Assembly: GCA_004431415.1 (NCBI GenBank)
Contig: QPMI01000502.1
Coordinates: 1-64,000 of the forward strand
Length of the DNA stretch: 64,000 nucleotides
Origin: Cyanophora paradoxa CCMP329
Taxonomy: Eukaryota > Plantae > Glaucophyta
Reading direction: 5' to 3'
The number at the start of each line of letters is the position of its first letter. The stretch's first letter is position 1. Shown piece by piece: positions 12,201 through 37,834 of this stretch. The notes under the pieces are model-generated. The model did no database searches and was not told where the DNA came from. It worked only from the letters and a program-made list of their open reading frames with translations. The position numbers were made by a program, and so were the translations under genes.

Positions 12201-12822
12201 TACAAAGGGCTTCCCGTGTTTATTAATTGCCTCGTTCAATGGTCTATAATCATTAACCATACGTTTCCCGTCTGGTTTCTTTGGGACTAAGAACGTGGCG
12301 GCGCCCCATAAGCTGAAGCATGGTGCGAGTTGGCCCCTCTTAACTTGTTCTTGGATGATCTCATATAAAAGGGCTTGGTCGGGAGGGGAGAGAGCAATAG
12401 GGCGGCGGGAAATGGGTTGGGCGTCTCCGGTGTCGACGTCATATTTTAAAAATGGGATGGGGGGACCAAGGGTGTCAATTTCGAAAACGTCACCGAACTC
12501 ATTCAGATGGTTGAACATCCGATCCTTCAGCTCCTGCGGCCAGTTCTTCTTCTCCAGCTTCTCCCGCAGCAGCTTGGCGTTCTTTTCAGACAGCGGCCGC
12601 TTGGGATACTCTGCGGGGAGGTAGAACGCGGTGCGAAGAGGAAGGGGTGCGAGTTCATAATCTGGGTCGATGGCAGTCGACCCAGACCCACCCTCCGCCT
12701 TCGAGGGCTCCAAGATGAAGCCTTCATCAGCAGAGGCGGCGATCTCGGTGATCCGCGACGCCGAGAGGCTGATGGCTGGCGCCGGGTGCAGATCGATGGT
12801 GCCGATGGTCGTGTGATGCATT
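9272..12822 (-). mobile_element. pol: Ty3/Gypsy LTR retrotransposon pol, 3' part: RT, RNase H, integrase
   Basis: RT: NDYRPLN, MPFG..APSFFQ, FIDD. RH: LTTDASKIGLG, TDHNPL, DGLSR. IN: H..H..CEIC, MDEV, VDGGSAF, GALER. Order is PR-RT-RH-IN. Probable 1-nt indel in the G-run near 9478; truncated at 9271 by PLV-A. Confidence 0.95.
12817..12822. repeat. 6-bp target site duplication TGCATT (partner at 36582-36587)
   Basis: Identical hexamer immediately outside both TIRs. Confidence 0.95.
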
Positions 12823-13105
12823 TGTTGTAAAGGGGAGGACCCCCCCCCAAACCAGACCGCCCCCAAAGTCTGGTTTTACCTTCAGGGATCCACCCCTTCT
12901 AGCGTCATCAATTAGCGATTTTTCTGAGATCAGTTAGGCGTGTTAATTAGGCGTGATGATGGACGAGCATGGATTTGAAGATTGGAAGGCGTGAGGGCGA
13001 GTGCATTTGGATCTGAGTAGAGAATATCGAGGGAGCTCTATCTAGGCGCTATCAGGGGCGACCTCCCAAGCGGTACGGGCCCCCAGAGCGGTCTGGTGCG
13101 GCCTC
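12823..13105 (+). repeat. Left TIR of PLV-B
   Basis: TGTTGTAAAGGGGAGGAC...GTGCGGCCTC is the reverse complement of 36299-36581, with no mismatch seen by eye. Confidence 0.97.
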
Positions 13106-13304
13106 TGGAGATGAGAAACGTCGAGATTAATATGTACAGTACTAGTGGACCTATAGCTAACTGCTGAACGTAACTGCTCCTCACACAAATCAGAGTCATA
13201 TATCAGAGTCAGAGTCAGAGTCTGAACTGTTCCTTACTGAGTCAGAGTCAGAGCCATAGAGTATTCTATAGCTAATCATTTGATAGCTATAGAATAATTC
13301 AAGA

Positions 13305-13880
13305 TCAATGCGCCACCGACATGGAGGGCAGTAATCTGATATATCGATATATAGGTGTCAGAAAGCATTTCAGCAAAGAATGATATATAGTCATTATATA
13401 AGTAAACGCACATTTGTGGCGGTCGGGCACGTCCGCATCCTGTAGAGGACGAGAGTCTGCACACTCGCAGCAGCAGGGCATACAACCGGACTTGACAAGG
13501 GCGCATGCTGCCTTTTCGCCGTAACGGTGAATCTTGCGCGACGGCTCGCACACGTTCATTCTTGCTTCGACGCGCCAGCGGCACGGAGGGCAGTAATCTG
13601 ATAGATTTTATTAGGCAAGGCACAAATTGTACTAAGTGTACGTAATTGCACACGCACACATATGGTAGCGAGAAGGGATGCTAGAACGTATACTAGAATC
13701 CATGCACTCGCAACAGCAGGGCAAACAACCGTACTTTACAAGGGCGCATGTGGATTCGAAATTGAGCTTGTGGGACGGCTCGCACAGGAAGCTGGTAATG
13801 TGAAGGCAAATCTCTTCTGGAAACGGCAGAACCTCAGTCAACAGCTGTGCAACTTCTGTGACGGTTGCCGATCGCGACAT
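13305..13880 (-). CDS. Two tandem paralogous small Cys-rich ORFs (13632-13880 with F-box-like N-terminus; 13305-13559)
   Basis: Both contain CEPS.K...E..CALVK.GC.PCCCEC.DS. The first begins LPFPEEICLHITSFL. Confidence 0.5.
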
Positions 13881-15879
13881 GGCCCAGTGGTCTACTAGGC
13901 CCGGGCTAGCGCTAGTACGACTCTGTAGTAGAGTCTGTACGAGTAGGCTACGCCGCTACTAGGCTACTTACTACTACTAAGTTAGCCGCTAGTAGCCCGC
14001 TACTATAGTACGCCGCGACCGCGACTTGCCAAGTTGCCAAGTTGGCGAGTGTGATAGCTGAAAGCCGCTGAGCACGCCTTTTATACTACGGTTGTGTTTC
14101 TTTATTCAGAAAGAAAGATAATAATTGCAATTTGGCCGGCTTAAGAAGGTTCCATCAAGTTCTGCTACTTCATATAACAAAATTCGCATTTAACATAAAA
14201 GAATTAAATTCTGGGTCCCCGAAGGTTCCAGCTGCCGAGTCAGACGTGGCAGCTTGCCATTGGCCAACGTGGCAGCTCGCCATTGGCCAACTTCAAGAAT
14301 TGTGCAATTAGCAAAATGAGTTATATTCGTATTTGTTTGCGCCATGATATTGAAAAACAGTACAATTGTAAGATTTGTCTATAGCAATTCTCAATTCTAT
14401 TGCTGAAGTTCTAGCAATTCTCAATTCTCTACCTGCCAGGCTGTTGCTGCAACTTCAAATTTCAGGCTTGCTAGCATGCTGGCCTAGCTAGCGCCGCCGT
14501 CAAGGCCGACGTACTACTGTAGGCGTAGTTTTTTAGCCGTTGTAAATAATTCGGCAATTTAGTATGACGGCAATTGCTTTGGGGGTAGGTAAATGCTCAG
14601 CCCGCCATAGAGCAGAAATCTGGATTCGGCAATTTAATACCACGGCAATTCCGGTTTTGGACAAATTCGGCAATTTTACTACGCGGCAATTTAACTACGC
14701 CTAAAGTAGACTACTAGCTATAGCGCGGTACTAGCGCCGCTAGCTATAGCGGCTAGCGTATTATAATTACATTTGTACATCAAGTCGAGCTGATGTTAAT
14801 TTGATGCGGATCGGAGTCATGGGAAAGTTTGCAATTGACTCATTGACTCAGTGATGGCTATCATAGTATTTGAAGCCGCCGCCGTCGACGTCAGTAGGCC
14901 TGCACCGCGCGCGACTCAGCTCGAGAGTCAGAGGCTCAGAGCTAGCGACGCTCAGGCTACTAGGCTAACCCATTAATTAGTACAGCTAGCGCTAGCGCAG
15001 CGCCACGCACGTTTGATTTTGATAGCTTCCATTTCAACTTCTTCCTTCAGCTTGAGCACGCGACTGCAGATCGCGTCGAGATGTTGCATGCTACTATCGT
15101 GCTCTTGCTGGCTCTGCGCAAGCGCCGCGAGCGTTAGTGCATCGGACTCGCCGACGCCAGCGCTAGTCGCGCTAGTCTATCTCCTCACCATATTGTGACT
15201 CTTGAGCTCGAGATCATGTCTGATTTGCCGCATTCCTGCAGCCATGCTGCTCAAATCCTCGAAAAGGGCCGCAAACATCTGCTCGCTAATTTCTGCTCGC
15301 ATCGAAACTCGTATGTCGTCGAGGCGCCGGCGCTTGTTCGACATAGCGTTCTCAAGGCTGTGCTCGGTGTTGTTGGCCATTGGATTTGGGGTCTGTACGC
15401 TCGCAAAGCTTGCTGCGCACGCGTGTACTCTTCTTTTGCTAGCTCTATTGCCTGCTCTGAGCGTCCGGATCCTGATTTATCTGCCCGGTCTAATCTGGCC
15501 TTCGCGTTTTTGCAGTCTTTCCTCAGCCGTGCCTTCTCCGGGTGCTCCGCCTTTTTCCACTTTGCAGTGCGCTCCTTTCCGGGGACTGGCGGCGGCCGCG
15601 GCGCTGCAAGGCGCTGGTGCCGGGCTGGACCGCTTACTAGTTTAACTGAGCTTGCCGGTGCCGCCAGCCTGGCCTAAGAGTCTAGGACTTCCCGGGCCGA
15701 AGCTTCGAGGTTTTCCACCGACTTTCTTTAATTGGCTGAAAAGAAAGAAAGAGAGAAAACACGAAAAAACGTGAAGAAACGAGAAACAGTCAAAAACCAA
15801 TTGCAATTCGAAAAAAGTCACGAGTCTCAAAAAAACAACATATTGAACGTGTACCGTCACTACCGTGACATCCGTATCC

Positions 15880-16078
15880 GACGTACGGCGGGTGTGACGG
15901 ACGTACGGCGGGTGTGACGGACGTACGGCGGGTGTGACACTGTGACAGTCGACGTCAGGCCGCTAGTACTAGCCTAGTAGGCCCGCTACACCCGCTAGCG
16001 CTAGCGCTAACCTAGCCTAGTAGCTGGTACGGCTTGCGGACGTTCGGCGGGTGTGACGGACGTACGGCGAGGGTGACG
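15880..16078. repeat. 20-bp tandem repeat GACGTACGGCGGGTGTGACG (3 copies at 15880-15938, 2 degenerate at ~16038-16078)
   Basis: Directly visible; no unique spacers. Confidence 0.9.
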
Positions 16079-16241
16079 CGGGCGGTCTGCAGTGACACTG
16101 TGCAATCGGCTAGCACAGCAGTAGCGCTAGCGCTAGCGCTAGCTATATATATATAGGTCCTAGCAAGTCTTAGAGATAGCTTCACGATCTAGCGCTACAG
16201 CTCCGGCCGCGGATCGAGAGCGCCACAATCACTAAGCCAAG

Positions 16242-17170: not shown

Positions 17171-17276
17171 CCTCTCTTGCATGGCTTAGAGGTTTCCTGC
17201 ATTCTATCTAGCAGTCAGAGATTGTTGCGCTGAAATCCGAAATTAATTTCAGTCCCTCTTCTTGGAAGCGCATGCA

Positions 17277-20200
17277 ATGGCCAGCACTGCAGCACTTAAG
17301 GCCGAACTTAGAAATTTAGCGACAGAACTTTATGATCGTGGATATGTTCACGGGACATTTCGAAACAAACTGATGCGCCTAGCGGACGCTAGCAGCGGGA
17401 CCTGGGGCCAAACGATTCGCAAATATATAGCGACACTGCTGCGACTGCGGAGCACGATTCGCCCAGCACGCCGCTTATATGAAGGCCAGCTCGCAGGCCA
17501 TTTTGGCGCAATTGCAGCAGCTCGCGCAAACGCGGTTCAGGCCGAGGAGGCGATACTGGAGGACGTTCCTAATATATTTCAGGATGTTGAAGAAATTCCC
17601 GTGCCACAAGATCTGGATGGGGTGCTCTCTCACAGGCACCACCGCTATCCGAATTTACTATTCGATAAGCACGTATATGCAATCGAGCCCACCTACGATC
17701 TGGAGTCCGTAAAGAATTTAACTATCGACGTTCTGGGTCAACTGGGCATTGCAGAGATGATAGGGCGATTTGTGTTAATCCGGTTCCGCTTTGACAATAA
17801 TCACATGTATACGACCCAGCTGATCCAAATAAGACAGAACGGGTTGCAGAGTTTGACTGAGAGTTTAGATGAGCGGATTGCGCAGTGGATGTCAGCACAA
17901 ATGTCATATCAGGAGGACGATTTCTGGACGGTAACATCGATCGAGGTGTTAATTGCAGACAACGCGGCTGGCGCCCTAGGCAATGTTCCGAAATTGCCAT
18001 TTTATCATAGGACAGTCGATAAGCTATACTGCCCGATGTCCCCAGCGAATGACTGCGTGCTCGAATGCTTTGAGTACGTTAAATTAAATCCACGCGGACT
18101 GAGCCTGAAGACAGTAATCGAAAAGCTGGCAAAGGCACCCTATGCATCTATTCGAGAGCGGCTCGGACTGGGAAAGGGCATGATATCTCTTGATCGCAGC
18201 ACAGTAGAAGCAATCTGCGGATTTTATTCGATAGATACAACTGTGACGGAGTGGGCAAACACGAAATTCAAGGAGCTTTTTCGAACCCAGTTTGATTATT
18301 CGAAGCGTGCAATTCTCTGCAACATTGATGGGCATTGCTACCTGATTAAAAAGGAGGCGACACTAGGTCTGGAGCGGTGCCCTTGCTGCGGAAAGATGTT
18401 TGATTTGGCAACGCATGTGGAGCAATGCACGTTCTGCAATAACTGCAAACGCGCGTACGACCCCAGAAAAGATCATTCATCAGAGTGCCAGGAGATGACG
18501 CGCCGTCAAAACGTGATCGGGCGGCAAATCAAGCCCTGCAAACCGGAGACAGAATTTACAGCGTTGGACAGCGTTGTCTGCGCGGATTTTGAAACGTTTG
18601 CTGCCAACGGCAAGACGCACGTTCCATATGCTGTCAGCTATTGCACGATTGAAAAAGGGGAGGTCTCGCCATGCGAGTTAATTTATGGTGAGCAAACGTT
18701 GGACTTGTTTATGCGCTGGCTTGAGCGCCGCAGCGAAAAGACGACGTTGGTGTTCTACAATGGGTCTGGCTTTGACTATATATTTGTCTACAAATGGCTC
18801 GTGTTAAATCGACCGAATACAGCATTAAACGTTCTGCGGTCGAACGGCAAGATCAAGAATATGTCGTGGAAAACGGCTGCAGGCGGGCCTATAAGTACGT
18901 TTGATCCGTGCCTGCACATCCAGGCTTCGCTCAAACAGGCCTGCAAGGACTACGGCTGCACTAACGTAAAGGGAGATTTTGATCATAGCAAGATTAAAAC
19001 GTGGGAGGACGTTGAGCGCTTTAAATCTGAATGGGAGCCGTACGTGGAAGACGACGTTAAGGCAATGACAGAGCTTTACATTAAATATTCGACAGCAGTC
19101 TTCGATCTGTACGGCTTAAACGTGAACACAACGCAAACAACCACAGCTTCGGCAATGGCGTTCCAGATTCATCGGCAGACGTTGATCAATCCAATTTCGC
19201 TACCGACCTACAAGGATGATCAGGTGCTGCGCCAGGCAATATATGGTGGACGGTGTCTCCCATTTAAACGCAAATTCGTCTCATCGGGCCCGGATGATTA
19301 TTTAGTCGACCTGGATGTTGTAAGCTTGTATCCGACGGCTATGTACGAGAATTGGTTTCCAACTGGAAAGTACAAGCATATTACGTCGCCCGATGCGCTG
19401 GACAGATTCTGCAAGATATTACAATCGAATCAGCGTTCGTTGATGTTTATTGCGTGCGTGGACGTGACAATTCCGCAAAATCTGCTGCTCTCTCCGCTGC
19501 CACGGCACGAATCTAATCTAGGCTGGTCTAATCTCAAGCCAATTGAGCGCGGTTGGTATACGTCAGTCGATATTAATCGTGCAATTAAACTGGGATGCGA
19601 GGTGACGAAGGTGCGCGAGGTCTACCTGTTTGACGGTAAAGATCAGATGTTTAAGACCTACATGGAGCGGATGTACTGCCAGAAAGCTAGATCTCGCAAG
19701 GGAACAGCTCCGTATGCGACGTCAAAGATTTACATGAATGGCCTTTACGGTAAATATTGCCAGCGGCCTGTGATCACAACCTCGGATCTGGTCACATCAT
19801 ACAAGCGATTTCGAGAAATTCAGCGATCAGCGCAGATCACAGACATTTCGATCGAATCAGACACGCGGATGTTTGTCACGTACGAGATTGAGGAGTCCAA
19901 GCGTGATAGAGCTGTCACTAAACCGTGCTTTATTGGCGCATTTATTCTGTCATATTCGCGGGAGATCATGGACAGGTTTCTGATTGAAATAGGCGCATAC
20001 TGGAGCATCGATGCAATGCCGTTCTATACTGATACGGACTCTTTGATTGTCCATCGAAAATACGCTGATCTGCTGCGGGCAAAAGGTTATATGAAGCCAG
20101 CATATGATATAGCGACGGCAACAGATGCGGACATTTGCAGGCAGGAACTAGGGAAACTTGACTGTGACATTAAAGGGCGGATTGTGGAAGCGTACTTCAT

Positions 20201-20603
20201 TGGGCCGAAGCTTTATACGTGTTCATTTGTACGTGACAGCGACGCGCAGCTTGATCTGCATGTACGCGCAAAGGGGATTCCGCAATCGTGGATCCAGGAG
20301 CACTGGCTACCAGACGAACCAGAGGCGAGGAAAGGGGCCCTCGACCGCAGGATCGCTCTGGATGCTTACAGGTGCATGCTCGAGGATCCCACGTACCAAC
20401 CCAAATGCACAATCGAATCAAAGCTGGCCCGTGTTTATAAACCGAACGGGCGGCAACGGGAGAGCGGAATCAGCTTTAGTTCCATGATCCAAATTCCGTT
20501 CGCTCGACAGCTGAACAAGTCGCAGTATACAAAGCGCAAGATAATTTCGGACGAATACTATAGTAGCGTCCCCCATGAGTACCGCGCAGGCGAGCCGAAT
20601 TAA
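17277..20603 (+). CDS. Protein-primed family B DNA polymerase (intact, with 3'-5' exonuclease)
   Basis: ExoI CADFET, ExoII FYNGSGFD, ExoIII YVEDDV; IYGGRC, DLDVVSLYPTAM, KIYMNGLYGK, YTDTDS, GPKLY, AKGI. Confidence 0.95.
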   Translation: MASTAALKAELRNLATELYDRGYVHGTFRNKLMRLADASSGTWGQTIRKYIATLLRLRSTIRPARRLYEGQLAGHFGAIAAARANAVQAEEAILEDVPNIFQDVEEIPVPQDLDGVLSHRHHRYPNLLFDKHVYAIEPTYDLESVKNLTIDVLGQLGIAEMIGRFVLIRFRFDNNHMYTTQLIQIRQNGLQSLTESLDERIAQWMSAQMSYQEDDFWTVTSIEVLIADNAAGALGNVPKLPFYHRTVDKLYCPMSPANDCVLECFEYVKLNPRGLSLKTVIEKLAKAPYASIRERLGLGKGMISLDRSTVEAICGFYSIDTTVTEWANTKFKELFRTQFDYSKRAILCNIDGHCYLIKKEATLGLERCPCCGKMFDLATHVEQCTFCNNCKRAYDPRKDHSSECQEMTRRQNVIGRQIKPCKPETEFTALDSVVCADFETFAANGKTHVPYAVSYCTIEKGEVSPCELIYGEQTLDLFMRWLERRSEKTTLVFYNGSGFDYIFVYKWLVLNRPNTALNVLRSNGKIKNMSWKTAAGGPISTFDPCLHIQASLKQACKDYGCTNVKGDFDHSKIKTWEDVERFKSEWEPYVEDDVKAMTELYIKYSTAVFDLYGLNVNTTQTTTASAMAFQIHRQTLINPISLPTYKDDQVLRQAIYGGRCLPFKRKFVSSGPDDYLVDLDVVSLYPTAMYENWFPTGKYKHITSPDALDRFCKILQSNQRSLMFIACVDVTIPQNLLLSPLPRHESNLGWSNLKPIERGWYTSVDINRAIKLGCEVTKVREVYLFDGKDQMFKTYMERMYCQKARSRKGTAPYATSKIYMNGLYGKYCQRPVITTSDLVTSYKRFREIQRSAQITDISIESDTRMFVTYEIEESKRDRAVTKPCFIGAFILSYSREIMDRFLIEIGAYWSIDAMPFYTDTDSLIVHRKYADLLRAKGYMKPAYDIATATDADICRQELGKLDCDIKGRIVEAYFIGPKLYTCSFVRDSDAQLDLHVRAKGIPQSWIQEHWLPDEPEARKGALDRRIALDAYRCMLEDPTYQPKCTIESKLARVYKPNGRQRESGISFSSMIQIPFARQLNKSQYTKRKIISDEYYSSVPHEYRAGEPN

Positions 20604-21761
20604 GCAAGCTTATTACGATCCGGAAACTGGCTTTCAGTCTGCGGCGAGGATAGCTAAGCGGCTCAATTTACCGCTATCAAGAGTGCAGGACGTACTTTCA
20701 AAATTGACGACTGCGCAGCGTTTTGCGAAACCTGTAAAGGAAAAGCCATCGACCAGCATAATTTACGGGGAGCCCGAAAAGTACTACGAAGTCGATCTGA
20801 TTGATGTGACCCCGTACGCGAGAACTAATCGAGGATTACTTTTATTATGAACGGTATCGATGTGACGACGCGCAAAGCGTATAGCATCCCTATGAAGACG
20901 AAATCGGAAAGCACTCTGCTAGCCAGTTTGAAGAAATTGATTGATGCACTCCCCTCGAAGCCGGACGTCATTCAGACAGATCAGGAGTTCAAAGGAACCG
21001 CAGCAACAATGCTAGCGAGTATGGGCATCAAGCATAATGCAGTGGAGGCGCATCGCCCGCAAGCAAACGGCAAAATAGAGAGATTTAATGGTACGCTTAA
21101 GCGCATCATTGCAAAGTACATGGATGCGTACGACACGGACAGATATATCGATAAGCTGCCTGCTTTCTTGCGCAATTATAATTCGTCAGAGCATAGGTCA
21201 ATTGGTACGTCGCCGAACGCTGCAGCAGAAAATCCGAAGGAGACAATTGCACGCAACGACTACCAGAGAGAAGCGTACGAGCAACAGCACTATTTTGCCC
21301 AAGCGGAATTTAAGGTAGGCGATCGGGTGCGAGTGCAGCTAGAGCGGCAGCGTTTCGACAAGTCTTCAAAGCCGACGTATTCAAAAGAAATCTACACGAT
21401 CACGGAGATAGGTGGCTTTGGGCCGCTGCTCAAATTTACGCTTTCGGGCTACGACAAAGCGGTGACCTACCAGCGACTATTGAAAGTAGCGGCAGATTCA
21501 GAGGAACGTCGTGCGGGCAATGCAGCACAGCGGGCACAGCAGCGCAGGAAGAAAGAGATTAATCTAATGCAAGAGAATCTAGACAAGAGTGATATAGAGA
21601 GAGCGCGCAAACTCGAGCGTTTGCAGAAGCAATTGTTGACTGCAGGTAAAGAGAAGCTGAACCCAGGAGGGGCAACACAGAGATGGTATTCGTCGTTCCA
21701 GAATAAAACTGCAGCGTACTCAGCCCCTGGCAATACGCGAACTCTCCGCCCACGCGCGTGA
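20575..21761 (+). CDS. rve DDE integrase of PLV-B, split by a single frameshift at ~20835-20847
   Basis: YYDP..GF, YEVDLID, GIDVTTRKA, IQTDQEF, NGKIERFNGTLK, YNSSEHRSIG, FKVGDRVRV. Adding one A (GGA ATT ACT TTT ATT ATG) joins the two ORFs. Confidence 0.9.
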
Positions 21762-21827: not shown

Positions 21828-22103
21828 TTAGAGAGCTATAACAATTGTTTGTTGGAGGGACTCTAGCAGAGCTAACTTTTCGTAGATTCGATTGCGATAG
21901 CGGCGATTGGCCTCCAGATGGCCCTCACTGTTATTGCGTTGATATTTCAAACTGGCTTCGATGTGACGTCGCCGGTAATCAGGATCTTCATTGTACCTGC
22001 GCCGATGGCTCTCCGCTCGCTTGGCCTTCCGTGCCGCAGCGATTTCAGGGGTGACAACAATTGGCTTGCGGCCTGGGCGCTTTGGCGATGATTCGGCATC
22101 CAT
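21828..22103 (-). CDS. Small basic putative DNA-binding protein with AT-hook-like KRPGRKP
   Basis: Arg-rich 91 aa; similar segment to 1391-1645. Confidence 0.6.
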   Translation of the reverse strand: MDAESSPKRPGRKPIVVTPEIAAARKAKRAESHRRRYNEDPDYRRRHIEASLKYQRNNSEGHLEANRRYRNRIYEKLALLESLQQTIVIAL

Positions 22104-27214: not shown

Positions 27215-28690
27215 GTAACGTCCCCGGAAATCAAGCCGGAACGCATTCACATTTATAAATTCGTTTGTTATAATTTGCACATAGTTATAAACCTGTGGGG
27301 TGATCAAATGCGAGTCACTATGCATTAGATCAAAGCCTGTCATAGATGGGTTTGCAGCAAGCACATTTGCTAGGACCGTATTCTCAAATAGTGACCCGTC
27401 TCGTAAATATCCTAAGTTGGTCAGAATGCTGAAATTAAATAGGACTCCGGCAGCAAAGGCTGGCCCATACATAATGATTTGATGTAGCTCAAAAGGCTTT
27501 GGAAATTCGACTCTGATCCAGGGATTAGGTAGAGTGCCACCTTGGAACCCTGTTGAGTTGGGTCGCACATGAGAAGGTGGGTGCAATTCCTCAAAGTCGT
27601 TGCTTATGATGTTTGCATCTGGAATTATAAACCAGTTTACATCAAATGGCGGCTCAACTGTTAAAGTAGACGATATGATTAGTCTCTCATCGTTCAGTAG
27701 GTCGTAGTTCGCCAATAGAAAGCTGCAGAGTGCATTTATTTTAGCATTTATTTCGATTTGTTTCAGCCATAAATCTGTTGTGGAAATCAAATAAGAAATA
27801 TTCGATGGGGAGGCATCATCAAGCTTGCTCATGACTGCAGCTGGCAGCGGAACACTTAAACGCCAGTATCTAGTTAGATTCCTATCTGCATCAACTGGAA
27901 GCAGTTCCTGCATTTGAAAGTGCGATTCCAGCTCGCTACCTGACATTAGCATAGAAATGATTGGGCTGCCTGAGAGGGATAGGATCCAGCCCAGAGCGCC
28001 CCAGCCTGACGTCTCCGAATTCGAAAAGCCTGCAGTCAATTGCTCACTGGCTTGGACCTCACCACAGCTAATGCTCACAAGAACAATTGGATCTTCTGCA
28101 TCGTAAATTTTACTGGCGTGGCTGAGTGCAGCAACTGAGGGATTATTCAAACAGGCTATCGCCCCGTCAACAAGGTTTTTGTCCCCTAGAACCTTCGGTG
28201 GAAAGAATGTAGGCGCTGCAGAAGATGCTCTCACTGCATCACGAATCAGCGTGCTTGAATATGGCCCATCCTTCGTAAAAACTACTGGCTGCATCCGAAC
28301 TGTATCAAACGCTGTAATTAATACGTCTTTTGTCGATTCTGCAATTGTGTAGTCCAGGGCAACGTCTGTAAGCACCGACTCCAGAGGATTTGCATCATAG
28401 CGGCTTCCTGAGAGCAAGCTTGTCAGTGATCTTGGATTTGCAAATATTGTTGGCAGGTTCGTTTGATATAGACTCAAGATATCACCTGCAGAATATCGGT
28501 AAGCAAGAACAGAGCCTGGAGTTGATGGGATCGCCAATCCGGCCGCTATTATTGCCCCTGTTGAGGTGCCTGCAAAGAAATCAAACAGCTGTGGTATTGC
28601 TTTCCCAGTAATCGCCTCAATCCGCTGTAGAATTCGGGCTATGACTATTCCACGAGCACCTCCACCTGATAGTGAGAGAATGACCTTCAT
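27206..28690 (-). CDS. Patatin-like phospholipase with extra C-terminal beta-sandwich-like domain
   Basis: LSLSGGGARG, nucleophile GTSTG, ASSAAPTFFPP, LVDGA..NNP, WG.LGW, LDDAS. Confidence 0.92.
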   Translation of the reverse strand: MKVILSLSGGGARGIVIARILQRIEAITGKAIPQLFDFFAGTSTGAIIAAGLAIPSTPGSVLAYRYSAGDILSLYQTNLPTIFANPRSLTSLLSGSRYDANPLESVLTDVALDYTIAESTKDVLITAFDTVRMQPVVFTKDGPYSSTLIRDAVRASSAAPTFFPPKVLGDKNLVDGAIACLNNPSVAALSHASKIYDAEDPIVLVSISCGEVQASEQLTAGFSNSETSGWGALGWILSLSGSPIISMLMSGSELESHFQMQELLPVDADRNLTRYWRLSVPLPAAVMSKLDDASPSNISYLISTTDLWLKQIEINAKINALCSFLLANYDLLNDERLIISSTLTVEPPFDVNWFIIPDANIISNDFEELHPPSHVRPNSTGFQGGTLPNPWIRVEFPKPFELHQIIMYGPAFAAGVLFNFSILTNLGYLRDGSLFENTVLANVLAANPSMTGFDLMHSDSHLITPQVYNYVQIITNEFINVNAFRLDFRGRYLN

Positions 28691-28714
28691 TTTTAAAAGG
28701 GGGCTTATATAAAA

Positions 28715-31700
28715 ATGTCCTACATCTTGAAGAAGCCAGTGCCACTTCGTAAAGCTCCAGATTTTGTGGATGATCGGCATATAAATATTCGCGTATTTGG
28801 GAGTACTCTAATTGACTACAATGCTGACAAAGATATACACCAGACCGAGTTTAATCGCCCAGCTGCGTTAATTCTGCGCAACTCACATGTTGGCGCCCCG
28901 GACATTGCACAGAGATTTTGTCTAGGTCCAGCTGAGAACTATGTTGCTGAAATAATTGGATCCAGGGCGTTGCCGCGGCACCTGCGAATTGCCTCCTCAG
29001 GCACTGTTTCCAAGTATGATTCTGGTAGATTAATCTTTAGGCTCCAAAATGATAGAGGGGTCCACACATCAGCTCTACGCCTAATTGATGAATCCAATGC
29101 TGTCACAAACAAGACTGCGGCTCACATTACAGGGCGAATTCTCCTTGGCGAAGATGCAGGAATATCAGTGCTAGCATCACAAATCCAGCCGTTTCCCTGG
29201 GATTTACTTTTTACAGCTGCACGAGAAGCAAATATTTTATACGGTTTTGATGTAAATCAAATCGATACCGAGCCAGCCACCAGGTTAGATATTCCTGGAT
29301 GCACCTTTGGCTCGATCCTGATGGAAGCTGATAGGCACCTGCTCCCGGCGTTGCATGACAGCTACGATCTTGGGCTCCGCACCAGGCAGTGGCGAAATAT
29401 TCACGGCACGTCGATTTACCAAGATGGAAAAAAGGTCATCACTGAACCGGAGATAATAAACATTTTCAACTACTACTTCGGACCTATTGTCCCTATACCA
29501 CCTATACCACCTCTTCCAGGGCTACCGAAGCCAAACCCTGAAGGGCCAGGTCGTGAGAGAGTTGCAGATGAAACAATTCCATTCGGGCAAAATATTATTT
29601 CGTGGGAGGCTGTCAGGAATCGCCCCGTGATAGAACGCTATAAGCATCCGCATGAAGAATACCTGCCGCCTGATATTGAAGTTTTCCCGCTCGAAATGTA
29701 CACAGAGCCTGAAGAGCAGTTACTTCCTGATGGCTTAGATGTTCAAGAACTCCAGTACGAGCAACCTGTGATTCCACATGAGCAGCTGCTTCCAGACGGC
29801 TTTGAACCTATTCTCTTCCCCTTGGAGTTCACCGTAGATTGGGAATCAATAACCAATAAACCTGGGAGTTTTCCACCAGAGGAACACAGGCATGATTGGG
29901 ATGAAATCGATAATAAACCGTTGCGGTTTCCCCCAGAGGATCACAGACATGATTGGGCTGAGATCGATAATAAGCCTTTACGGTTCCCCCCAGAGGATCA
30001 TAGACACGACTGGGGTGACCTTGATAATGTTCCGCTTGAATTTCCACCGGAAGATCACAGACACATTTGGAGCGAAATAGATGAGCAGCCCGAGTTCGCA
30101 AAGATTGAGCTTCCTGTCACACTAGCTGTCTCTCTCTACAAATCAATTAACACCCCTGAAAGGTTATATTTGAATGACCACTATGTCCACAGGCAGGGAA
30201 TTCGTGCTAACACTGACATGTCAGGCTCTTTGTTTGTAAGGATTCCCCGTGGAATGGAGATAGTTGCTGCTGGCGGGAATATTGGTTTGCAGGACACGTT
30301 CCCAAGTATTTATGTCACAAACTACTACGCCTCTGACATCGAAATGACATCTGTTCTACCTCCTTTGCCTTCACTGCCGTTGGATCCTCTCTCCCATGCT
30401 GATTTTCATTCTGCAATCCAGATTAATGTAACAGATGTTAGCGATTTAGATTCATCGAGACCGAAATTAGTTTTTAGCCGTGAACGCCTTTTACCCAATG
30501 CTCTGATAGGAAATCGAGATGATTATAAGAAATGCGAAATAGCATGGATAAAAACGAACTATAACGGTGGAGTTGGGGAGGGCATTTTAGAAATTAATCA
30601 GAGGGCAGCAGCAAAAAACATTCACAACGAGACTATATCCAGAGTGGTCACAGAGGATTACCTTCAAGCCCAAAATTATGTAGATGAAACAGAGCTCGCT
30701 TTAGTTATTGCAGGTCTAGCTGTGACAGGGAATTACCTGCCCTTGACAGGAGGAACTATTGACGGAACAGTGACTGCTGACAACTTTTTTGTTCACACTG
30801 AAAGTGATCAGACCTTCCCTGTGGTTCACCCAGGAGCTGAGTACGAGATTCCTATTGATCCTGCTATTATGCCCATAAAAATCGATCTCCCTTCCGATTA
30901 TGTTGGACGGGGTGAACTGAAAATAATCTCTTTCACAGGAGATTATAATGATCTTTTAAACAAGCCTACTGCTGAGAACCTTCACCCTGTTGCCTATTCA
31001 GGAAATTTCCTCCATTTAAATAATAGGGCACACACCCACACAAAGGCTGAGATCACAGATTTTGCACACACTCACACGAAGTCCCAAATAACAGATTTTG
31101 CACACACCCATACCGAGCAGATATAACTAATTTCGCTCACACCCATGTTAAATCAGAGATAACTGATCTTGGGAATGTTGCTTATGTTGGTCATACCCAT
31201 ACCAAGGCAGAGATTACAGACCTGGAAATGTATCGTACGTTGGTCATACCCATGATTGGAATACTGATATCTATAACAAACCGGCGTTGTTCTCAGGCAA
31301 CTACAACGATCTGACCAATAGACCCACTCTTGATCCCTTCACAGCCACCACTATCAGAGCCAATAATACAATGTATGTAGGATCAGGTCAGATTGTAGAA
31401 CCAGCAGGGCCTATGTTTGAAGAAACATGGTTCTTCCACAATTCGCAGAATTACTTTGATAAAACCTTACTTGTTCGTGGAAATGCCTATGCAAGAAATT
31501 TCTATGCTATGAACCCCTCAAATAATGCGACCATCAGTCGATGTATTACAGAGGCAGATCTTTCCAGTCAACTCAATGCATATTTTAATGGGAAAATTCA
31601 AGCAGGGAAGTATGTTTACACTACTCCCGTTTTAGATTACAATAATCTCTATGTGTTCAATCTAACTATCTATTTTACCAATGCCTTTGCTTCTCCTCCT

Positions 31701-31886
31701 GTTGTGACAGCAACAGTAAGGCATGAAGGACAAGATCCAAATTATCAATTAACTCCCGTCGTTTTTACTGTGAACCTGTTGAATGTTTATAGTAACTATT
31801 TTACTTGTGAACTTTTCACTGATCCATATGCAATGATTAATTCATCCAAAACTGTTACAATTCATTACATTGCTGTCGCAATTTAA
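28715..31886 (+). CDS. Large tail-fibre-like protein (803-aa ORF continued via frameshifts into 31287-31886)
   Basis: LLP..DSYDLG...QWRNI, 19-aa DWxEIxNKP.xFPPExHRH repeats, 12-aa AHTHTKxxITDF repeats, YLPLTGGTI, SGNYNDLxNxP. C-terminal IQAG..F..AF..PP.V..T..IHYIAV resembles an H-type lectin/gp53-like tip. Confidence 0.75.
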
Positions 31887-31905: not shown

Positions 31906-32827
31906 ATGACATCTGTATTAGAAATCCCGAATTATGAATTAGCAGCCAAATCACTGCATAGCACGTTATCATAAACTGCTCAGCAACACGTTATCGTGGT
32001 GCTGAGCAGTTTATGATAACGTGGGTGGATTCACCACGGCAAAGATCGTAACTTTCGATAACACAAGCAATAACTCCGCTCTTGTGGTTAAGAGTGGTGG
32101 AGCCTATATTGGTGACGGAGCGATTGTAGTGGGGACTGTCACAGCAAATCAATTAAACGTGAGTGGTACATGCATTTTCAGTTCTTTGATGACTTTTAAC
32201 TATGGCCTTTTAGGTAACATAATTTATGGGACTCTTCAGGCATTTCTGAGAGTTCAAGCACCCGAAATTGGTAGTGGAACAGATTCCAACATGAGCTACA
32301 AACGAAATGGTAATGCAATTGTCACTCTTGAAAAAACGACGGTAGCAGAGATAGAGATAAACTCATTCACACTTTCCCCAACTTGCTATTTGAAAAGGAC
32401 TTATTGCCCAAGATTTTGTGTCACAAAACTATTACCTAATCAGGCAGCATCATCCTCATCATGGTCATCTGGCGTCCGTATTACCTTCACAGTTCCTAAT
32501 TTCGCTACTTATTATGTCAACAATGAAGGCAACTGGAATGATTCGTATATATTTACTGCACCTGTTGCAGGTGTTTACCGGGTTTTTTTCACAGCTCTCA
32601 GAATAGATACTCAGACTTCTTATGTGACTATCTTAAAGCTTTCAATAAATGGAATTGCATCCGATTACGAATTTCAATGTTCATTAACGGGACAAATGGC
32701 TATCACATACGAAACTTTACTTACTCTTAACATGGGGGACAATGTTGGAGTATTAAACTCAACAGGTGTTACCATCACTATTAGCACACGCTGTTACTTG
32801 GGGTGCTATCTCGTAAGTGCTATATAA
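31906..32827 (+). pseudogene. Fibre paralog with C1q-like C-terminal domain, 5' end disrupted
   Basis: The ATG at 31906 hits a stop inside a 24-bp inverted repeat. The remainder has FTAPVAGVYRVF and LTLNMGDNV. Confidence 0.7.
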
Positions 32828-33897: not shown

Positions 33898-34164
33898 ATG
33901 TCGAATATCTACCAAGTGGTTCTCTCAGATACTGAGAAGTTGGGAATGGAATATTGTGCTGCTTCTGTTCAGGATTGGATTGATAATGTCGTTCATAACA
34001 GGGCAAGAATTGCAATTGATGAGATTGTTCAGAAAGAAATTCAATCTTGCATCTCATCAGGAGTTCAAATACCAACCTCAAAGGAAGCCATTGTGTCACA
34101 GGCATTCCAAAGGGGAACTGTAAAGAAAGGCATCGAGTATAATAATGTCACAGAAGAGCAGTGA
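33898..34164 (+). CDS. Small phage-like protein, possible fibre chaperone
   Basis: LSDTEKLGMEY.A.SVQDWIDN.VHNRARIAIDEIV..QIP..E.IV..AF resembles small proteins next to C1q fibre genes in marine tailed phages (recall, unverified). Confidence 0.6.
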   Translation: MSNIYQVVLSDTEKLGMEYCAASVQDWIDNVVHNRARIAIDEIVQKEIQSCISSGVQIPTSKEAIVSQAFQRGTVKKGIEYNNVTEEQ

Positions 34165-34212: not shown

Positions 34213-35061
34213 ATGACCGAGTACAATCGGGTTCAGCTACCTATCTACTCACTGGGCTCCCCAGCCATCCATATGAGGCAGCATGAAGTTAGCGATGCTA
34301 TTGCGGGATTAGAGTCCACTGAGCGTCCAAACTCAACTAATGCATTTGATCAACGATCTGTGATTCGGTGTAAAGAATTGCGCGCAGATAAAAACTCTGG
34401 GGTTGTAAAAACAACGCGATTATTAGTCACTAATGCAAATTTTTCCCAGCCCATAACAGGGGGAGTTGATTCGTACAGTGTTGACCTCCGAAGCATAAAC
34501 TATGATCAAAACACTGCTGCCCTCACTGTGCGCTCCGGGGGAGCAGCTATTACTGGAGCTTGCCGTGTTAGTGGAGGACTATCATCATCGATTGCCATCA
34601 ATGATGTTCCAGACTTTTCATTAGAGAATGTCGAAAATCGTAAACGAGTTCGAATGTACTTACCTTGCTGTGACCTCCCCTATGCACAAGCTCTAGTAGA
34701 AGTTGAGATAACCATAGCAAATTCAAGTACACCAAATGGTCTGGATGGTGAGAGGTTGCTTTCAAACAGAGAAATACCGAAGGCACTTCAATCACTCTGT
34801 CAGGATCAAAATGATCAGATAGGGCATGTGTATACGTTCTTTGTGCAAGGTCTTGGGCATGCTGGCCGGGGATACGTAGTTCGTAATATCAATACAAGGC
34901 ATCTTTTCGATTTATATGCTACCGCTATAGGCAGATATTCTATCCTAATAATCGGATATCGCTCCGATGTAGCTGCATCAGCGGCCACTAGAGGACTGAA
35001 CCCTGATCCAGCACTCAATAATATGTATGAGGAGAACAATCCAGAAAATCCTATAGCTTGA
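34213..35061 (+). CDS. Fibre-family paralog (shared N-terminal domain)
   Basis: H.VSD...GL.STE...IRCKELRADKN.G..KTT.LLVTNANF and AL.VRSGGA.I shared with 32850 and 35090. Confidence 0.7.
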   Translation: MTEYNRVQLPIYSLGSPAIHMRQHEVSDAIAGLESTERPNSTNAFDQRSVIRCKELRADKNSGVVKTTRLLVTNANFSQPITGGVDSYSVDLRSINYDQNTAALTVRSGGAAITGACRVSGGLSSSIAINDVPDFSLENVENRKRVRMYLPCCDLPYAQALVEVEITIANSSTPNGLDGERLLSNREIPKALQSLCQDQNDQIGHVYTFFVQGLGHAGRGYVVRNINTRHLFDLYATAIGRYSILIIGYRSDVAASAATRGLNPDPALNNMYEENNPENPIA

Positions 35062-35089: not shown

Positions 35090-35842
35090 ATGGAAGCTGT
35101 TGAAAGAATTGTTGTTCCCTCTTTGACACTAGCAGCCCCAGCAAATCACGTCCTCCAGCATGCTGTCTCAGACGACGTGCCTGGTCTGCAATCAACTGAG
35201 CAGCAGCCAACTCTAAATACCTTCCGGGAGAATCACATATTACGTTTAGGCGAGGTTCGATGCGACAAAAATAATGGGACAATAAAAACAACAAGTCTCC
35301 TTGTAACCAATGCAAACTTTAATTCACATTATGGGGATCCTGATAGCTATGACGATGCTAATAAGGTCAATACTTTTACCTTTGAATCAAGAACAGGTGC
35401 CGTCACCTGCAGATTTGGAGGTGCTTATATTGGCGATGGTCTGAGAGTAGGCGGCGCTGCTTGTGCTCCTATATTTGTTAATGATCAACCTAACCCTGAA
35501 AACACAAATGAAAGAATTCGAACCTATGTGCCTTCTATGAATTCGCCTTACATTATTAAACTATTCACCCTAAACATAAATGAGCAAACATCGATTGTAG
35601 ATAACGTTCAGCCACTCGGAAATCATTTCAAGAGTGTTGTTGATATTCCCCCGGATGTCTACTTCCTTTGTAGAAGGAATGATGCTCTCCGGCCAAACAT
35701 AGCTGTTTTGATCAATCCTATCGATAATTTTGGTGTCGCTTTCCATTCGACTCCAGTTGGGGTTGAAGATTACCAGTTTATTGTGAGGGCCACGCTAATG
35801 GGTGCCTACAAATTATTCTATTTGCTGAAAGAACAGATGTGA
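35090..35842 (+). CDS. Fibre-family paralog (shared N-terminal domain)
   Basis: HAVSDDVPGLQSTE..EVRCDKNNGTIKTTSLLVTNANF, GGAYIGDG. Confidence 0.7.
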   Translation: MEAVERIVVPSLTLAAPANHVLQHAVSDDVPGLQSTEQQPTLNTFRENHILRLGEVRCDKNNGTIKTTSLLVTNANFNSHYGDPDSYDDANKVNTFTFESRTGAVTCRFGGAYIGDGLRVGGAACAPIFVNDQPNPENTNERIRTYVPSMNSPYIIKLFTLNINEQTSIVDNVQPLGNHFKSVVDIPPDVYFLCRRNDALRPNIAVLINPIDNFGVAFHSTPVGVEDYQFIVRATLMGAYKLFYLLKEQM

Positions 35843-35955
35843 TTGCAAGCGGGGTCAAGTATGGTGAGACCTTCAATTCGAATCGTTACTTTCCAATTGG
35901 AGGGGCTGATCCCAACCCATAGAATCTTTGTTTTTATATATATTACCCCTTGTAG

Positions 35956-36300
35956 ATGGATCTGCTCCGTAAATGCATGGACATGTTCCATCTCAACGTC
36001 ACCAGCAAATTGAAATGCAGTTGCTGCGAGACAACTATCAACCTCGAAATATCTGACACTGAGGGCTCACGCACCCCTGATACTCAGCTATCGCCTAATA
36101 ACACACCCGGGACTTCTAGGTCCAATTCTCCTTTTACGCGATCTGATTCACCTATACCATGGCTTGATTCTGAAAGCCGAAGATCGTCTTGGCCACCCCC
36201 AAATATCCCGAAGCCCCTGAAAAGAAAGAAGTCCTTGCTATCAAGTTTCAGAAAGGAGAAGACTCCAGTTGCCGAAAAGCAACCAGATCAAGTGGAATGA
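35956..36300 (+). CDS. Small Ser/Pro-rich protein with CSCC motif
   Basis: 114 aa ATG ORF whose TGA overlaps the first 2 nt of the right TIR. Confidence 0.5.
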   Translation: MDLLRKCMDMFHLNVTSKLKCSCCETTINLEISDTEGSRTPDTQLSPNNTPGTSRSNSPFTRSDSPIPWLDSESRRSSWPPPNIPKPLKRKKSLLSSFRKEKTPVAEKQPDQVE

Positions 36301-36581
36301 GGCCGCACCAGACCGCTCTGGGGGCCCGTACCGCTTGGGAGGTCGCCCCTGATAGCGCCTAGATAGAGCTCCCTCGATATTCTCTACTCAGATCCAAATG
36401 CACTCGCCCTCACGCCTTCCAATCTTCAAATCCATGCTCGTCCATCATCACGCCTAATTAACACGCCTAACTGATCTCAGAAAAATCGCTAATTGATGAC
36501 GCTAGAAGGGGTGGATCCCTGAAGGTAAAACCAGACTTTGGGGGCGGTCTGGTTTGGGGGGGGGTCCTCCCCTTTACAACA
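36299..36581 (-). repeat. Right TIR of PLV-B
   Basis: Reverse complement of 12823-13105. Confidence 0.97.
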
Positions 36582-37834
36582 TGCATTTTAAGAGTTGAGT
36601 AGTCGAGCTTCCAGCCGCCATGCGCCATGATGAAAGAGAGACCTACGATTGCCCCGTGGGCGACCCCATCGAAAACTCGAAACAGCACCGGAACAAGAGC
36701 TCCAGGTAACTGTAGAGTGACAGCCGCCACGTGATTGACGTACGCCACCTTGCCCTCTTGGCCCAGCGCAACTGCGACGGGTTTTTTGAGTGCGAGGAGG
36801 CGGACGCCGAGTGCTAGGGCGGTTTTCGAATCCATGAAGCAGTTTGATGCTCCCGTATCGAGTAATCCCTTGATGGTCTGAATTTCGCCAGCGGTGGACG
36901 TGACGATGGGCAGTTCGATGAGGGTCGCTCGAGTTGGAGCTTCGTCAACTGTGGGCATGACGGAAGCAGACGCGAGATCGAGAGAGGTTTGGAGGGGAGG
37001 GGCATCTGACGGAATGGTGCCGTTGAACTTGAGAGTCGGTTGCAACCCCTCCGCTTCTGCGAGCTCGATCGCATGGAGCGATTCAACATATGCAGCGATA
37101 AGGCGGGGGCAGGCGCCGCCGTCTCTGCAAATTTTACAGCACGGCTTTAATTTGTCCTTGAGTTCGATGCAGGCCTTGCAGGTGTCGTCGTCACATCTGT
37201 GCGTATAGCGGAAGGCGTCCATAGGGTCGCCTTTACCGTACTGGTAGTCATCGCCTGGTGGCGACTGCAGGCCATCGAGCGTGCAGGGCGTGCCCTGCGC
37301 GCAGAGAGCGCAACCCTTACTGCATGGTCTGAGCTTGGCTTCTGGATCCTTCGGGTGGGCCTCGGCTTGACAGTCTTGCCCTGCGGAGCAGGACGAGCAG
37401 CAAGTGGTGTTGCAACCACTCGCCTGGTTGGGGAAGCGAAGACAGGTGTCGTCGCTGATGCACGCGCAGCAGTGTTGGCCAGCGCGTGCCGTCCCGTCGG
37501 CGTTGGGCGGGACCACTGTCAGCCGAGAGCCATCCTGCTCGTACCCAGGAGTGAGCTCATCGCCAATGCAATAAAGGAAGGCGGGGCCGTTTTCTTCCTC
37601 TGAATCGCTCGACACTAGCAATTCAGAGGACGGCGGTCGTGTAGGATGCTGCAGATGTCGCTTCGAGATCCGGGCAGCTCCATTGCCTCGAAGTCCAGCT
37701 TCACTTGAGTCGTCAGACGATGTAGATTCGTCCGAGCTCGACTCCGTCGAAGAATCCGATGAGGACTCCTCGGAAGGTCCCAGCAATCTGTCGGCCCGCT
37801 GGGAGGGCACAGAGGGACCGCTTACGCGTTTGGG
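36582..37834 (-). CDS. pol: Gypsy pol 5' part: Cys-rich region and aspartic protease
   Basis: GLLDTGASNCFM..IVGLSFI; in frame with the RT part once PLV-B and one TSD are removed. Confidence 0.9.
37776..37834 (-). promoter_or_regulatory. Putative -1 ribosomal frameshift signal (C CCA AAC plus stem-loop/pseudoknot)
   Basis: Heptamer in gag phase just before the gag stop, with pol in the -1 frame and a structured RNA starting after an 8-nt spacer. Confidence 0.75.

What the first reader, a model, noticed from the sequence alone, without database searches (positions are those of the whole stretch)
12817..36587. Complete, apparently recent endogenous Polinton-like virus with integrase but no maturation protease
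Seen: identical 283-bp TIRs, a 6-bp TSD, and excision restoring the Gypsy pol frame exactly, which implies a young insertion. Known: canonical Polintons/Mavericks carry pPolB, rve-INT, ATPase, MCP, penton and an adenain protease, and begin with AG. This element begins TGTTGT, shows no recognisable protease, and adds two pentons, patatin and five fibre genes. Inference: a distinct virus lineage that may be reactivatable.
Basis: partly seen in the sequence, partly recalled or inferred. Interest (0 to 1): 0.85.

Follow-up and report, generated by a model that had tools for sequence, protein, structure and literature searches.

The report
Young Polinton-like virus inside algal retrotransposon
A 23.8-kb virus genome with identical inverted ends sits inside a retrotransposon of what is likely a glaucophyte alga; it likely arrived recently, but its apparent lack of a capsid-maturation protease and its extra genes are ordinary for an already catalogued group of such viruses.

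Summary
In detail: identical 283-bp TIRs (12823-13105 / 36299-36581), a 6-bp target-site duplication, and a Gypsy pol frame that stays in phase across the insertion. The element encodes pPolB, rve-integrase, A32 ATPase, a double jelly-roll MCP, two likely pentons, patatin and five fibre-type genes. The novelty claim is weak. The nearest MCP (65% identical) is a published Cyanophora paradoxa endogenous-virus capsid, and a published table finds a protease in 0 of 156 glaucophyte PLVs and lipases in 89. TG...CA ends are the usual retroviral-integrase ends (recalled). First, pPolB carries an OTU-fold cysteine-protease domain, likely for releasing the terminal protein. Second, as assembled the copy is not intact: the integrase and the long fibre are frameshifted, and one C1q fibre has a fold-back deletion. 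Contigs of 4 of 4 runs read an extra base at the integrase break, and 7 of 7 frame changes examined are -1, so most breaks are likely assembly errors. About four near-identical copies exist. Verdict: a real, young, probably competent new member of a known but unnamed PLV group. Reactivation is untested.

The parts
12817..12822 (.). Left copy of 6-bp target-site duplication (TGCATT)
12823..13105 (+). Left TIR, 283 nt, begins TGTTGT
   Evidence: junction covered by contigs in 3 of 4 runs shown
13106..16241 (.). Left arm, mostly non-coding: two small paralogous minus-strand ORFs (13305-13559, 13632-13880), short direct and inverted repeats, 20-nt tandem repeats at 15880-15938
   Evidence: about 4-4.5 times flank depth
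16242..16907 (+). 221-aa ORF, unassigned, acidic C-terminal half
   Evidence: no Pfam, PHROGs, NCBIfam or Atlas hit; not folded
17277..20603 (+). Protein-primed DNA polymerase B, 1108 aa: terminal-protein-like domain (about 126-231, inferred from position), OTU-fold protease domain (about 245-361; Cys260, His353), Cys-rich finger, exonuclease and polymerase motifs present
   Evidence: PF03175 E 2e-50; fold search 4BOZ Z 8.0, rmsd 3.1, 110 aligned, plus many OTU rows; motifs; Cys260 invariant in 11 of 11
20575..21761 (+). rve-type integrase, split in the assembly into ORFs 20575-20850 (first Asp) and 20847-21761 (second Asp, Glu) by a -1 frame change near 20832
   Evidence: rve_3 E 1.4e-8; all covering contig depth in 4 of 4 runs reads one extra base there
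21828..22103 (-). 91-aa basic ORF, unassigned
22215..22511 (+). 98-aa ORF with ExoX-like_C motif
   Evidence: PF20600 E 4.8e-6, just under cut-off
22459..23091 (-). 210-aa ORF, unassigned; holds no cysteine, so it cannot be a cysteine protease
   Evidence: sequence
23101..23844 (-). A32-like packaging ATPase
   Evidence: Pox_A32 E 2.4e-9
23907..25295 (-). Double jelly-roll major capsid protein, 462 aa
   Evidence: model (mean pLDDT 55) matches PBCV-1 capsid proteins Z 20.5 and 19.4, faustovirus 19.4, mavirus 12.0, Sputnik 11.9; 65% to P0002
25340..26296 (-). Minor capsid (penton) protein 1
   Evidence: ESM Atlas 0.97-0.98 to clusters with DUF5901 (17% of members) and Sputnik V18/19 (26%)
26324..27214 (+). 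Likely minor capsid protein 2, head-to-head with penton 1
   Evidence: colinear global alignment to penton 1 beats 500 of 500 shuffles, z about 3; local BLASTP and hhalign not significant
27206..28780 (-). Patatin-like phospholipase (G-rich loop, GxSxG and DG motifs present; likely start near 28687) with an unassigned C-terminal domain of about 160 aa
   Evidence: PF01734 E 8e-26; motifs; C-terminal part no Pfam hit
28715..31886 (+). Long fibre gene with phage-tail repeats (PTR) and C-terminal H-lectin-like domain; two -1 frame changes (about 31112, about 31220)
   Evidence: PHROGs tail/fibre hits to E 1.7e-11; PTR E 4e-4, H_lectin E 0.004, both under cut-off; part of contig depth reads an extra base at 31112
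31906..32827 (+). C1q-type fibre gene broken by a fold-back at 31962-32023 with loss of about 65 codons
32850..33875 (+). C1q-type fibre gene, open
   Evidence: C1q E 1e-5
33898..34164 (+). 88-aa ORF, unassigned
   Evidence: only sub-threshold hits
34213..35061 (+). Fibre-family paralog (shares about 125-aa N-terminal domain with the C1q fibre); C-terminal domain unassigned
   Evidence: tblastn E 2e-18
35090..35842 (+). Fibre-family paralog, same N-terminal domain; C-terminal domain unassigned
   Evidence: tblastn E 2e-20
35956..36300 (+). 114-aa ORF ending at the right TIR, unassigned
36299..36581 (-). Right TIR, 283 nt, ends ACAACA
36582..36587 (.). Right copy of target-site duplication
9272..12816 (-). 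Target Gypsy pol, downstream part (RT, RNase H, integrase)
   Evidence: Pfam
36588..39435 (-). Target Gypsy, upstream part (gag-like ORF 37822-39435, Asp protease)
   Evidence: Asp_protease_2 E 3e-6; gag label inferred from position

Best explanation
This is an endogenous Polinton-like virus, flanked by identical TIRs and a 6-bp duplication inside a Gypsy pol gene, that was likely inserted recently by an rve-type integrase and likely belongs to the protease-less PLV group already catalogued in the glaucophyte alga Cyanophora. Shown: the ends, the duplication, the gene set, the capsid fold. Inferred mechanism: the DDE integrase joins the TG...CA ends to a staggered 6-bp cut; after release the linear genome is copied from its ends by pPolB, primed by a built-in terminal-protein domain that the OTU domain would cut free; MCP and two pentons would form an icosahedral capsid filled by the A32 ATPase without a proteolytic maturation step; the fibres would bind the cell and patatin would breach a membrane on entry. 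No transcription genes were recognised, so expression would need the host nucleus or a co-infecting giant virus. Most frame breaks in this copy are likely single-base losses of the assembly.
For: TIR, TSD, phase. Zero differences in 283 bp bound TIR divergence at about 1% (95%). Left-arm contigs with 0-2 differences run at 4.0-4.5 times flank depth in 3 of 3 runs where the flank contig is shown: a rough sign of about four near-identical copies. MCP 65% identical to P0002, whose sequence and contig label match row 106 of Table S2 of PMC10120064 over the part shown. PMC12220804 Table S6: 156 glaucophyte PLVs, 0 in all nine protease columns, 85 rve, 49 PF03175, 89 lipases; its text names PTR-PTR-H_lectin in a C. 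paradoxa PLV. OTU fold in pPolB matches the TP-vOTU-EXO-PALM layout of 10.1101/2024.03.18.585575. At 20832 all covering depth in 4 of 4 runs has the extra base; 7 of 7 frame changes in three broken plus-strand genes are -1; split genes in such elements were shown to be assembly artefacts elsewhere.
Against: Contigs drop rare variants, so a break private to this one copy could be hidden by its siblings. Only part of the depth shows the extra base at 31112, and none is listed near 31220 (tables were cut). The fold-back deletion at 31962-32023 does not look like a simple base-calling slip and was not resolved. TIR identity is not a clean clock: truncated EMALEs also have TIRs. The host is inferred from one homolog and a fibre architecture, not from a host gene. 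Penton 2 rests on weak similarity. Three unassigned regions large enough for a small protease were not folded. No virion or expression data.
Confidence: 0.65

Rival explanations
1. Same virus family, but this copy is truly crippled (integrase frameshift, broken fibres). It was inserted with help from a sibling or decayed soon after, and can move only if complemented.
For: Four lesions in three genes in the assembled sequence; the fold-back deletion; differences from all covering contigs at 17701, 18710 and 20024, of which 1 of 3 is non-synonymous; contigs hide minority alleles.
Against: No in-frame stops in pPolB, ATPase, MCP, pentons or patatin; all 7 frame changes examined are -1, including 4 in the unrelated neighbouring element; 4 of 4 runs show only the longer integrase allele.
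Confidence: 0.22
2. A separate, undescribed class-level lineage of small viruses with an NCLDV-like capsid module, confined to glaucophytes.
For: Only 1 homolog among 7990 candidates scored and 3 at E<=1e-10 among 1.84 billion representatives, one of them a low-complexity false hit; no relatives in viral or metagenome contigs; the fold is nearer NCLDV capsids than virophage ones; the host's 366 MCP hits fall in two unnamed clusters, none in the Maverick-Polinton columns; two 2026 frameworks do not mention glaucophytes in their main text.
Against: PMC10120064 notes that PLV and Polinton MCP models in general resemble NCLDV capsids, so the fold does not separate it; every gene type is a standard PLV part; modules are widely mosaic; no HUH, VLTF or Mriya48 gene was recognised.
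Confidence: 0.1
3. A canonical Polinton whose Ulp1/adenain protease is too divergent to be recognised.
For: pPolB with exonuclease and vOTU plus rve-INT is the Polinton pairing; Pfam also missed the MCP, pentons and OTU domain, so it is not a sensitive test.
Against: No peptidase hit in 50 frames at E<=10; no H-W...D...Q...C-G layout in six frames; the 210-aa ORF has no Cys; 0 of 156 glaucophyte PLVs have one under nine profiles.
Confidence: 0.03

Closest known systems
Cyanophora paradoxa endogenous PLVs (PMC10120064 Tables S2, S4; PMC12220804 Table S6, section 13)
   Same: MCP 65% identical to a listed capsid; no maturation protease; rve-INT, pPolB, A32 ATPase, mCP and lipase all frequent in the set; PTR plus H-lectin fibre.
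   Different: Those papers give capsid lists and pooled counts, not a description of single elements or a name for the group; I could not tell whether this very locus is among the 156.
Maverick-Polintons (class Polintoviricetes)
   Same: pPolB with TP-vOTU-exonuclease-polymerase layout, rve-INT, TIRs, 6-bp TSD, ATPase, MCP, penton.
   Different: No Ulp1/adenain protease detected; TG...CA ends instead of (AG)3 or (AGT)2; MCP type outside the Maverick-Polinton clusters in the published table; two pentons and a fibre array.
Mavirus and EMALEs (Virophaviricetes)
   Same: rve-INT plus pPolB, TIRs, short TSD, endogenous in a protist, near retrotransposons.
   Different: MCP fold nearer NCLDV than mavirus (Z 20 against 12); exonuclease motifs kept; no protease; here the virus sits in the retrotransposon, whereas Ngaro elements sit in EMALEs.
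NCLDV-like PLVs (Zephyrvirus, Zoravirus, Mriyavirus; 10.64898/2026.06.19.733378)
   Same: Small genome, NCLDV-like capsid fold; lipase and pPolB in some Zephyr members, RVE in Zora.
   Different: No HUH, VLTF or Mriya48 recognised; no sequence link shown; Zephyrviruses have no endogenous example in that preprint.

Membership tests
Polinton-like viruses, broad sense | Double jelly-roll MCP | tested here: met
   Z 20.5, rmsd 4.0, 309 aligned to a PBCV-1 capsid protein; BFVD E 4e-16
Polinton-like viruses, broad sense | Minor capsid protein | tested here: met
   Penton 1 by Atlas features; penton 2 weaker
Polinton-like viruses, broad sense | A32-like packaging ATPase | tested here: met
   Pox_A32 E 2.4e-9
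Polinton-like viruses, broad sense | 14-40 kb with TIRs and an integrase | tested here: met
   23,759 bp, 283-bp TIRs, rve_3
Glaucophyte PLV set of PMC10120064 / PMC12220804 | MCP within the listed Cyanophora capsid types | tested here: met
   65% identity over the full length to P0002, a listed entry; published clusters were cut at 25%
Glaucophyte PLV set of PMC10120064 / PMC12220804 | Host is a glaucophyte | tested here: inconclusive
   Inferred from P0002 and the fibre architecture; no host gene was placed
Polintoviricetes (Maverick-Polintons) | pPolB and rve-INT, 6-bp TSD | tested here: met
   integrase split in the assembly
Polintoviricetes (Maverick-Polintons) | Ulp1/adenain maturation protease | tested here: inconclusive
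   None by Pfam (49 of 79 frames of 70+ codons plus the pPolB N-terminus) or motif scan; three candidate regions not folded
Polintoviricetes (Maverick-Polintons) | (AG)3 or (AGT)2 end motif of vertebrate elements | tested here: not met
   Ends are TGTTGT...ACAACA; motifs from PMC8097293
Polintoviricetes (Maverick-Polintons) | MCP or ATPase nests in Mavpol group 1 or 2 | not testable with these tools
   No labelled reference set on hand; the published table puts none of the host's 366 MCP hits in those columns
Virophaviricetes, mavirus-like | pPolB lacking most of the exonuclease | tested here: not met
   Exo I-III motifs present at 435, 494, 589; mavirus layout
Virophaviricetes, mavirus-like | Virophage-type MCP | tested here: inconclusive
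   Mavirus and Sputnik match at Z about 12, well below NCLDV capsids, on a model of mean pLDDT 55
Mriyavirus-related / NCLDV-like PLVs | HUH endonuclease, VLTF2/3, Mriya48; ATPase placement | tested here: inconclusive
   None recognised by Pfam; no Mriya48 profile and no tree available

The most novel reading that the evidence does not exclude
A still-mobile, glaucophyte-specific lineage of NCLDV-like small viruses, unplaced in current frameworks, with a hetero-penton capsid and a fibre array, whose intact copies can be reactivated in a cultured alga, perhaps by an as yet unknown glaucophyte giant virus, and which repeatedly lands in Gypsy elements (two unrelated viruses hit the same Gypsy 3.5 kb apart).
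Probability: 0.15. Interest if true: 0.65.

Novelty: new member of a known kind. Interest (0 to 1): 0.3.

Why it matters
As it stands it is a clean, datable example of an already catalogued group, with exact ends, an exact target site and about four near-identical siblings. That makes it a practical handle for asking whether glaucophyte PLVs still excise, replicate and form particles, and for placing this unnamed capsid type in the PLV tree. It also shows that apparent pseudogenes in such assemblies need checking against reads. It does not show a new way of building a virus: lacking the maturation protease is the rule among PLVs outside Gosseviruses and Maverick-Polintons.

Tried and rejected
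No whole genome is held for the window, so sibling copies and their target sites could not be listed. Relatives were sought without result in viral contigs with MCP, pPolB and ATPase, in metagenome contigs with the MCP alignment, and with the TIR end as a pattern. None of 10 element proteins is in the protein collection by exact sequence. The integrase search gave only distant relatives (best 39%), no full-length sibling. No RNA holder was listed; this says nothing on expression. Read evidence for the right junction, free ends and the fold-back at 31962-32023 was not obtained. PDB sequence searches with penton 2 and the MCP profile gave nothing significant. The 221-aa ORF had no usable Atlas hit. 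A discoidin domain in the patatin tail was not confirmed by Pfam. P0004, P0007, P0008 and P0009 were left out of the MCP alignment as likely low-complexity matches (P0004 read, the other three judged by length and multiple short stretches). No Ulp1/adenain row appeared in the fold searches of the pPolB N-terminus, which excludes nothing for other ORFs. No tree was built, for lack of labelled reference sequences. Three look-ups of earlier findings returned nothing. Rejected: assembly chimera (left junction is in contigs of 3 runs); programmed -1 frameshift in the integrase (no X XXY YYZ site in 20829-20850 by eye, and contigs read an extra base); TG ends as a mark of novelty.
Full report
Observation. 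The element runs from 12823 to 36581 (23,759 bp, 46.8% GC against 60-61% in the flanking Gypsy and 71% at 50-64 kb). Its TIRs are 283 nt and identical, it begins TGTTGT and ends ACAACA, and TGCATT is duplicated on both sides. The target is a minus-strand Gypsy pol: Asp protease to the right, RT, RNase H and integrase to the left. The bases on both sides, counting one TSD copy, sum to a multiple of three. In runs X1, X9 and X19 one 3615-nt contig covers 12400-12852 without a difference and runs 30 bases into the TIR; no such row is shown for X2, and the table was cut. So the left junction is real, and no common empty allele breaks that contig, though contigs drop rare variants. The right junction was not checked against reads.

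Genes. pPolB (PF03175, E 2e-50), rve integrase (E 1.4e-8), A32 ATPase (E 2.4e-9) and patatin (E 8e-26) are Pfam hits. The 462-aa ORF folds as a double jelly roll (mean pLDDT 55) and matches PBCV-1 and faustovirus capsid proteins at Z 19-20, mavirus and Sputnik at Z 12. One penton is supported by Atlas features; the second by a colinear alignment to the first that beats 500 of 500 shuffles, though local BLASTP and hhalign are not significant. Five fibre-type genes follow: a long gene with phage-tail repeats and an H-lectin-like end, and four paralogs of which three intact ones share an N-terminal domain of about 125 aa; two of the four end in C1q. The fibre label for the last two rests on that shared domain only. 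Coding density from 16242 to 36300 is 95%.

Protease. No peptidase family was hit at E up to 10 in 50 frames: 49 of the 79 stop-to-stop frames of 70 or more codons plus the pPolB N-terminus. The 30 frames left out were pPolB and the ATPase (scanned) and 28 alternative frames inside assigned genes. A six-frame scan for a recalled adenain-like layout found none. Pfam also missed the MCP and pentons, so this is 'not detected', not 'absent'; the 221-aa ORF and two fibre C-terminal domains were not folded. But the element does hold a cysteine-protease domain: pPolB residues about 245-361 match OTU deubiquitinases (4BOZ Z 8.0, rmsd 3.1, 110 aligned, and some twenty further OTU rows at Z 4.5-7.2; Foldseek top hit 4BOZ at E 0.004). 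Cys260 is invariant in 11 of 11 aligned sequences and a His column lies at 353. This is the vOTU domain described for Polinton pPolBs and proposed to release the terminal protein. It is not the capsid-maturation enzyme.

Is the copy intact? Not as assembled. The integrase is split near 20832 with its first catalytic Asp in one ORF and the Asp and Glu in the next; the long fibre changes frame near 31112 and 31220; the C1q gene starting at 31906 has lost about 65 codons at a fold-back. At 20832 all covering depth in 4 of 4 runs has one extra base; at 31112-31113 part of the depth does in 4 of 4 runs. All 7 frame changes in three broken plus-strand genes (integrase 1, fibre 2, pPolB of the neighbouring element 4) are -1, the pattern expected of long-read base losses (established knowledge). 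Split genes in similar elements proved to be artefacts on resequencing. Against this, siblings could mask a private lesion, and the fold-back is unresolved.

Age and copy number. No difference in 283 bp bounds TIR divergence at about 1%, with the caveat that truncated EMALEs also carry TIRs. Left-arm contigs with 0-2 differences stand at 4.0-4.5 times the flank depth in the three runs where both are shown, and summed depth over the capsid module is about ten times higher again from copies at 90-99% identity. Contig depth is a rough measure, but it suggests about four near-identical copies within a larger family. Twenty DNA-type runs of one coded organism hold 72-76% of the sampled words.

Relatives and literature. 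The only close MCP is P0002 (65%; also first, followed by P0003 at 40%). Its sequence and contig label match a C. paradoxa entry in Table S2 of PMC10120064, whose Table S4 counts 366 MCP hits in that species, 272 and 94 in two unnamed clusters and none in the Maverick-Polinton columns. PMC12220804 pools 156 glaucophyte PLVs: 0 in all nine protease columns, 139 with PF04665, 97 with its mCP profile, 85 rve, 49 PF03175, 89 lipases, and names a PTR-PTR-H_lectin fibre in a C. paradoxa PLV and discoidin-patatin fusions in PLVs of Rhizaria and glaucophytes. It calls a reduced morphogenetic module typical of Aquintoviricetes and ties rve-INT to 6-bp TSDs. A 2026 preprint says Gosseviruses are the only major PLV group with a core protease and reports two pentons in Trimcap B members. 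AG-type ends are described for vertebrate Mavericks, with an exception; that TG...CA is the usual substrate of retroviral-type integrases is recalled, not looked up. The host is therefore likely Cyanophora or a close glaucophyte; this is inferred, as no host gene was placed.

What is not in print, by my searches: a description or name for this group. Searches for Cyanophora with Polinton or with endogenous viral and capsid returned one paper; the main texts of PMC10120064 and two 2026 preprints do not mention Cyanophora. Supplements of the preprints are closed and could hold a placement. Papers as seen: PMC10120064 parts 1-3 of 7, passages and supplement rows; PMC12220804 section 10, part 1 of 2 of section 13, passages and supplement rows; 10.1101/2024.03.18.585575 passages; 10.64898/2026.10.13.758929 and 10.64898/2026.06.19.733378 parts 1-3 of 5 and passages; PMC8547959 section 10 and passages; PMC8097293 passages.

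Mechanism. Shown: ends, TSD, gene set, capsid and OTU folds. Inferred from known families: integrase-made insertion; protein-primed copying from the TIR ends with OTU release of the terminal protein; ATPase packaging into an MCP capsid with two penton types and no maturation cleavage; fibre attachment; patatin-aided entry. Whether it replicates alone or needs a giant virus is open. It works like a Polinton in replication and integration and like a protease-less PLV in capsid building; it should be filed as a PLV in the broad sense, not as a member of Polintoviricetes.

Verdict. Real and young, probably competent, a new member of a known kind. Interest 0.3; the bolder reading (an unplaced, reactivatable glaucophyte lineage) has about 15% probability and would merit 0.65.

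Noticed in passing
window 1-about 9271: A second, unrelated low-GC (38%) Polinton-like element: pPolB in five pieces (2551-5867, four -1 frame changes) and an open rve integrase (5871-7256, 30% identical to the first element's). It appears to end near 9271 in ...TGTGACA and to interrupt the same Gypsy; its other end lies outside the window. The 3615-nt flank contig would end at about 9238, which fits a second multi-copy end there. Two viruses in one Gypsy reverses the nesting usually reported.
   Followed up: partly
window 8983-9031 and 9221-9269; 7161-7213 and 8064-8116: Inverted repeats (49 nt, 82%; 53 nt, 83%) near the end of the second element; the latter is an inverted copy of the integrase 3' end.
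   Followed up: no
window about 9490: The Gypsy integrase tail seems to change frame here and to continue to the junction at about 9271.
   Followed up: partly
window 26296-26324 and 28687-28715, and upstream of the fibre genes: Structural genes sit in head-to-head pairs with AT-rich spacers of about 27 nt, and most have TATA/AAAA-rich sequence right before the ATG, loosely like late promoters of cytoplasmic DNA viruses (recalled); no statistics done.
   Followed up: partly
window 13305-13559 and 13632-13880: Two small paralogous Cys-rich ORFs in the left arm; the second has a weak F-box-like match (E 0.02).
   Followed up: no
window 17000-22500 against 23000-31600: Summed contig depth is several-fold higher over the capsid and fibre module than over the replication module, which suggests that this capsid module pairs with other replication modules in the same genome.
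   Followed up: no
window 43271-45752: Fragmented Helitron-like sequence (Helitron_like_N E 5e-11, DUF6570 E 4.5e-10).
   Followed up: no
window 54981-59315: GC-rich host gene with TPR, DUF4470 and MYND matches, apparently broken by many short introns.
   Followed up: no
window 27206-28780: The patatin's best NCBIfam match is the CBASS phospholipase model (E 6e-42, 144 bits, under the 200-bit cut-off).
   Followed up: no
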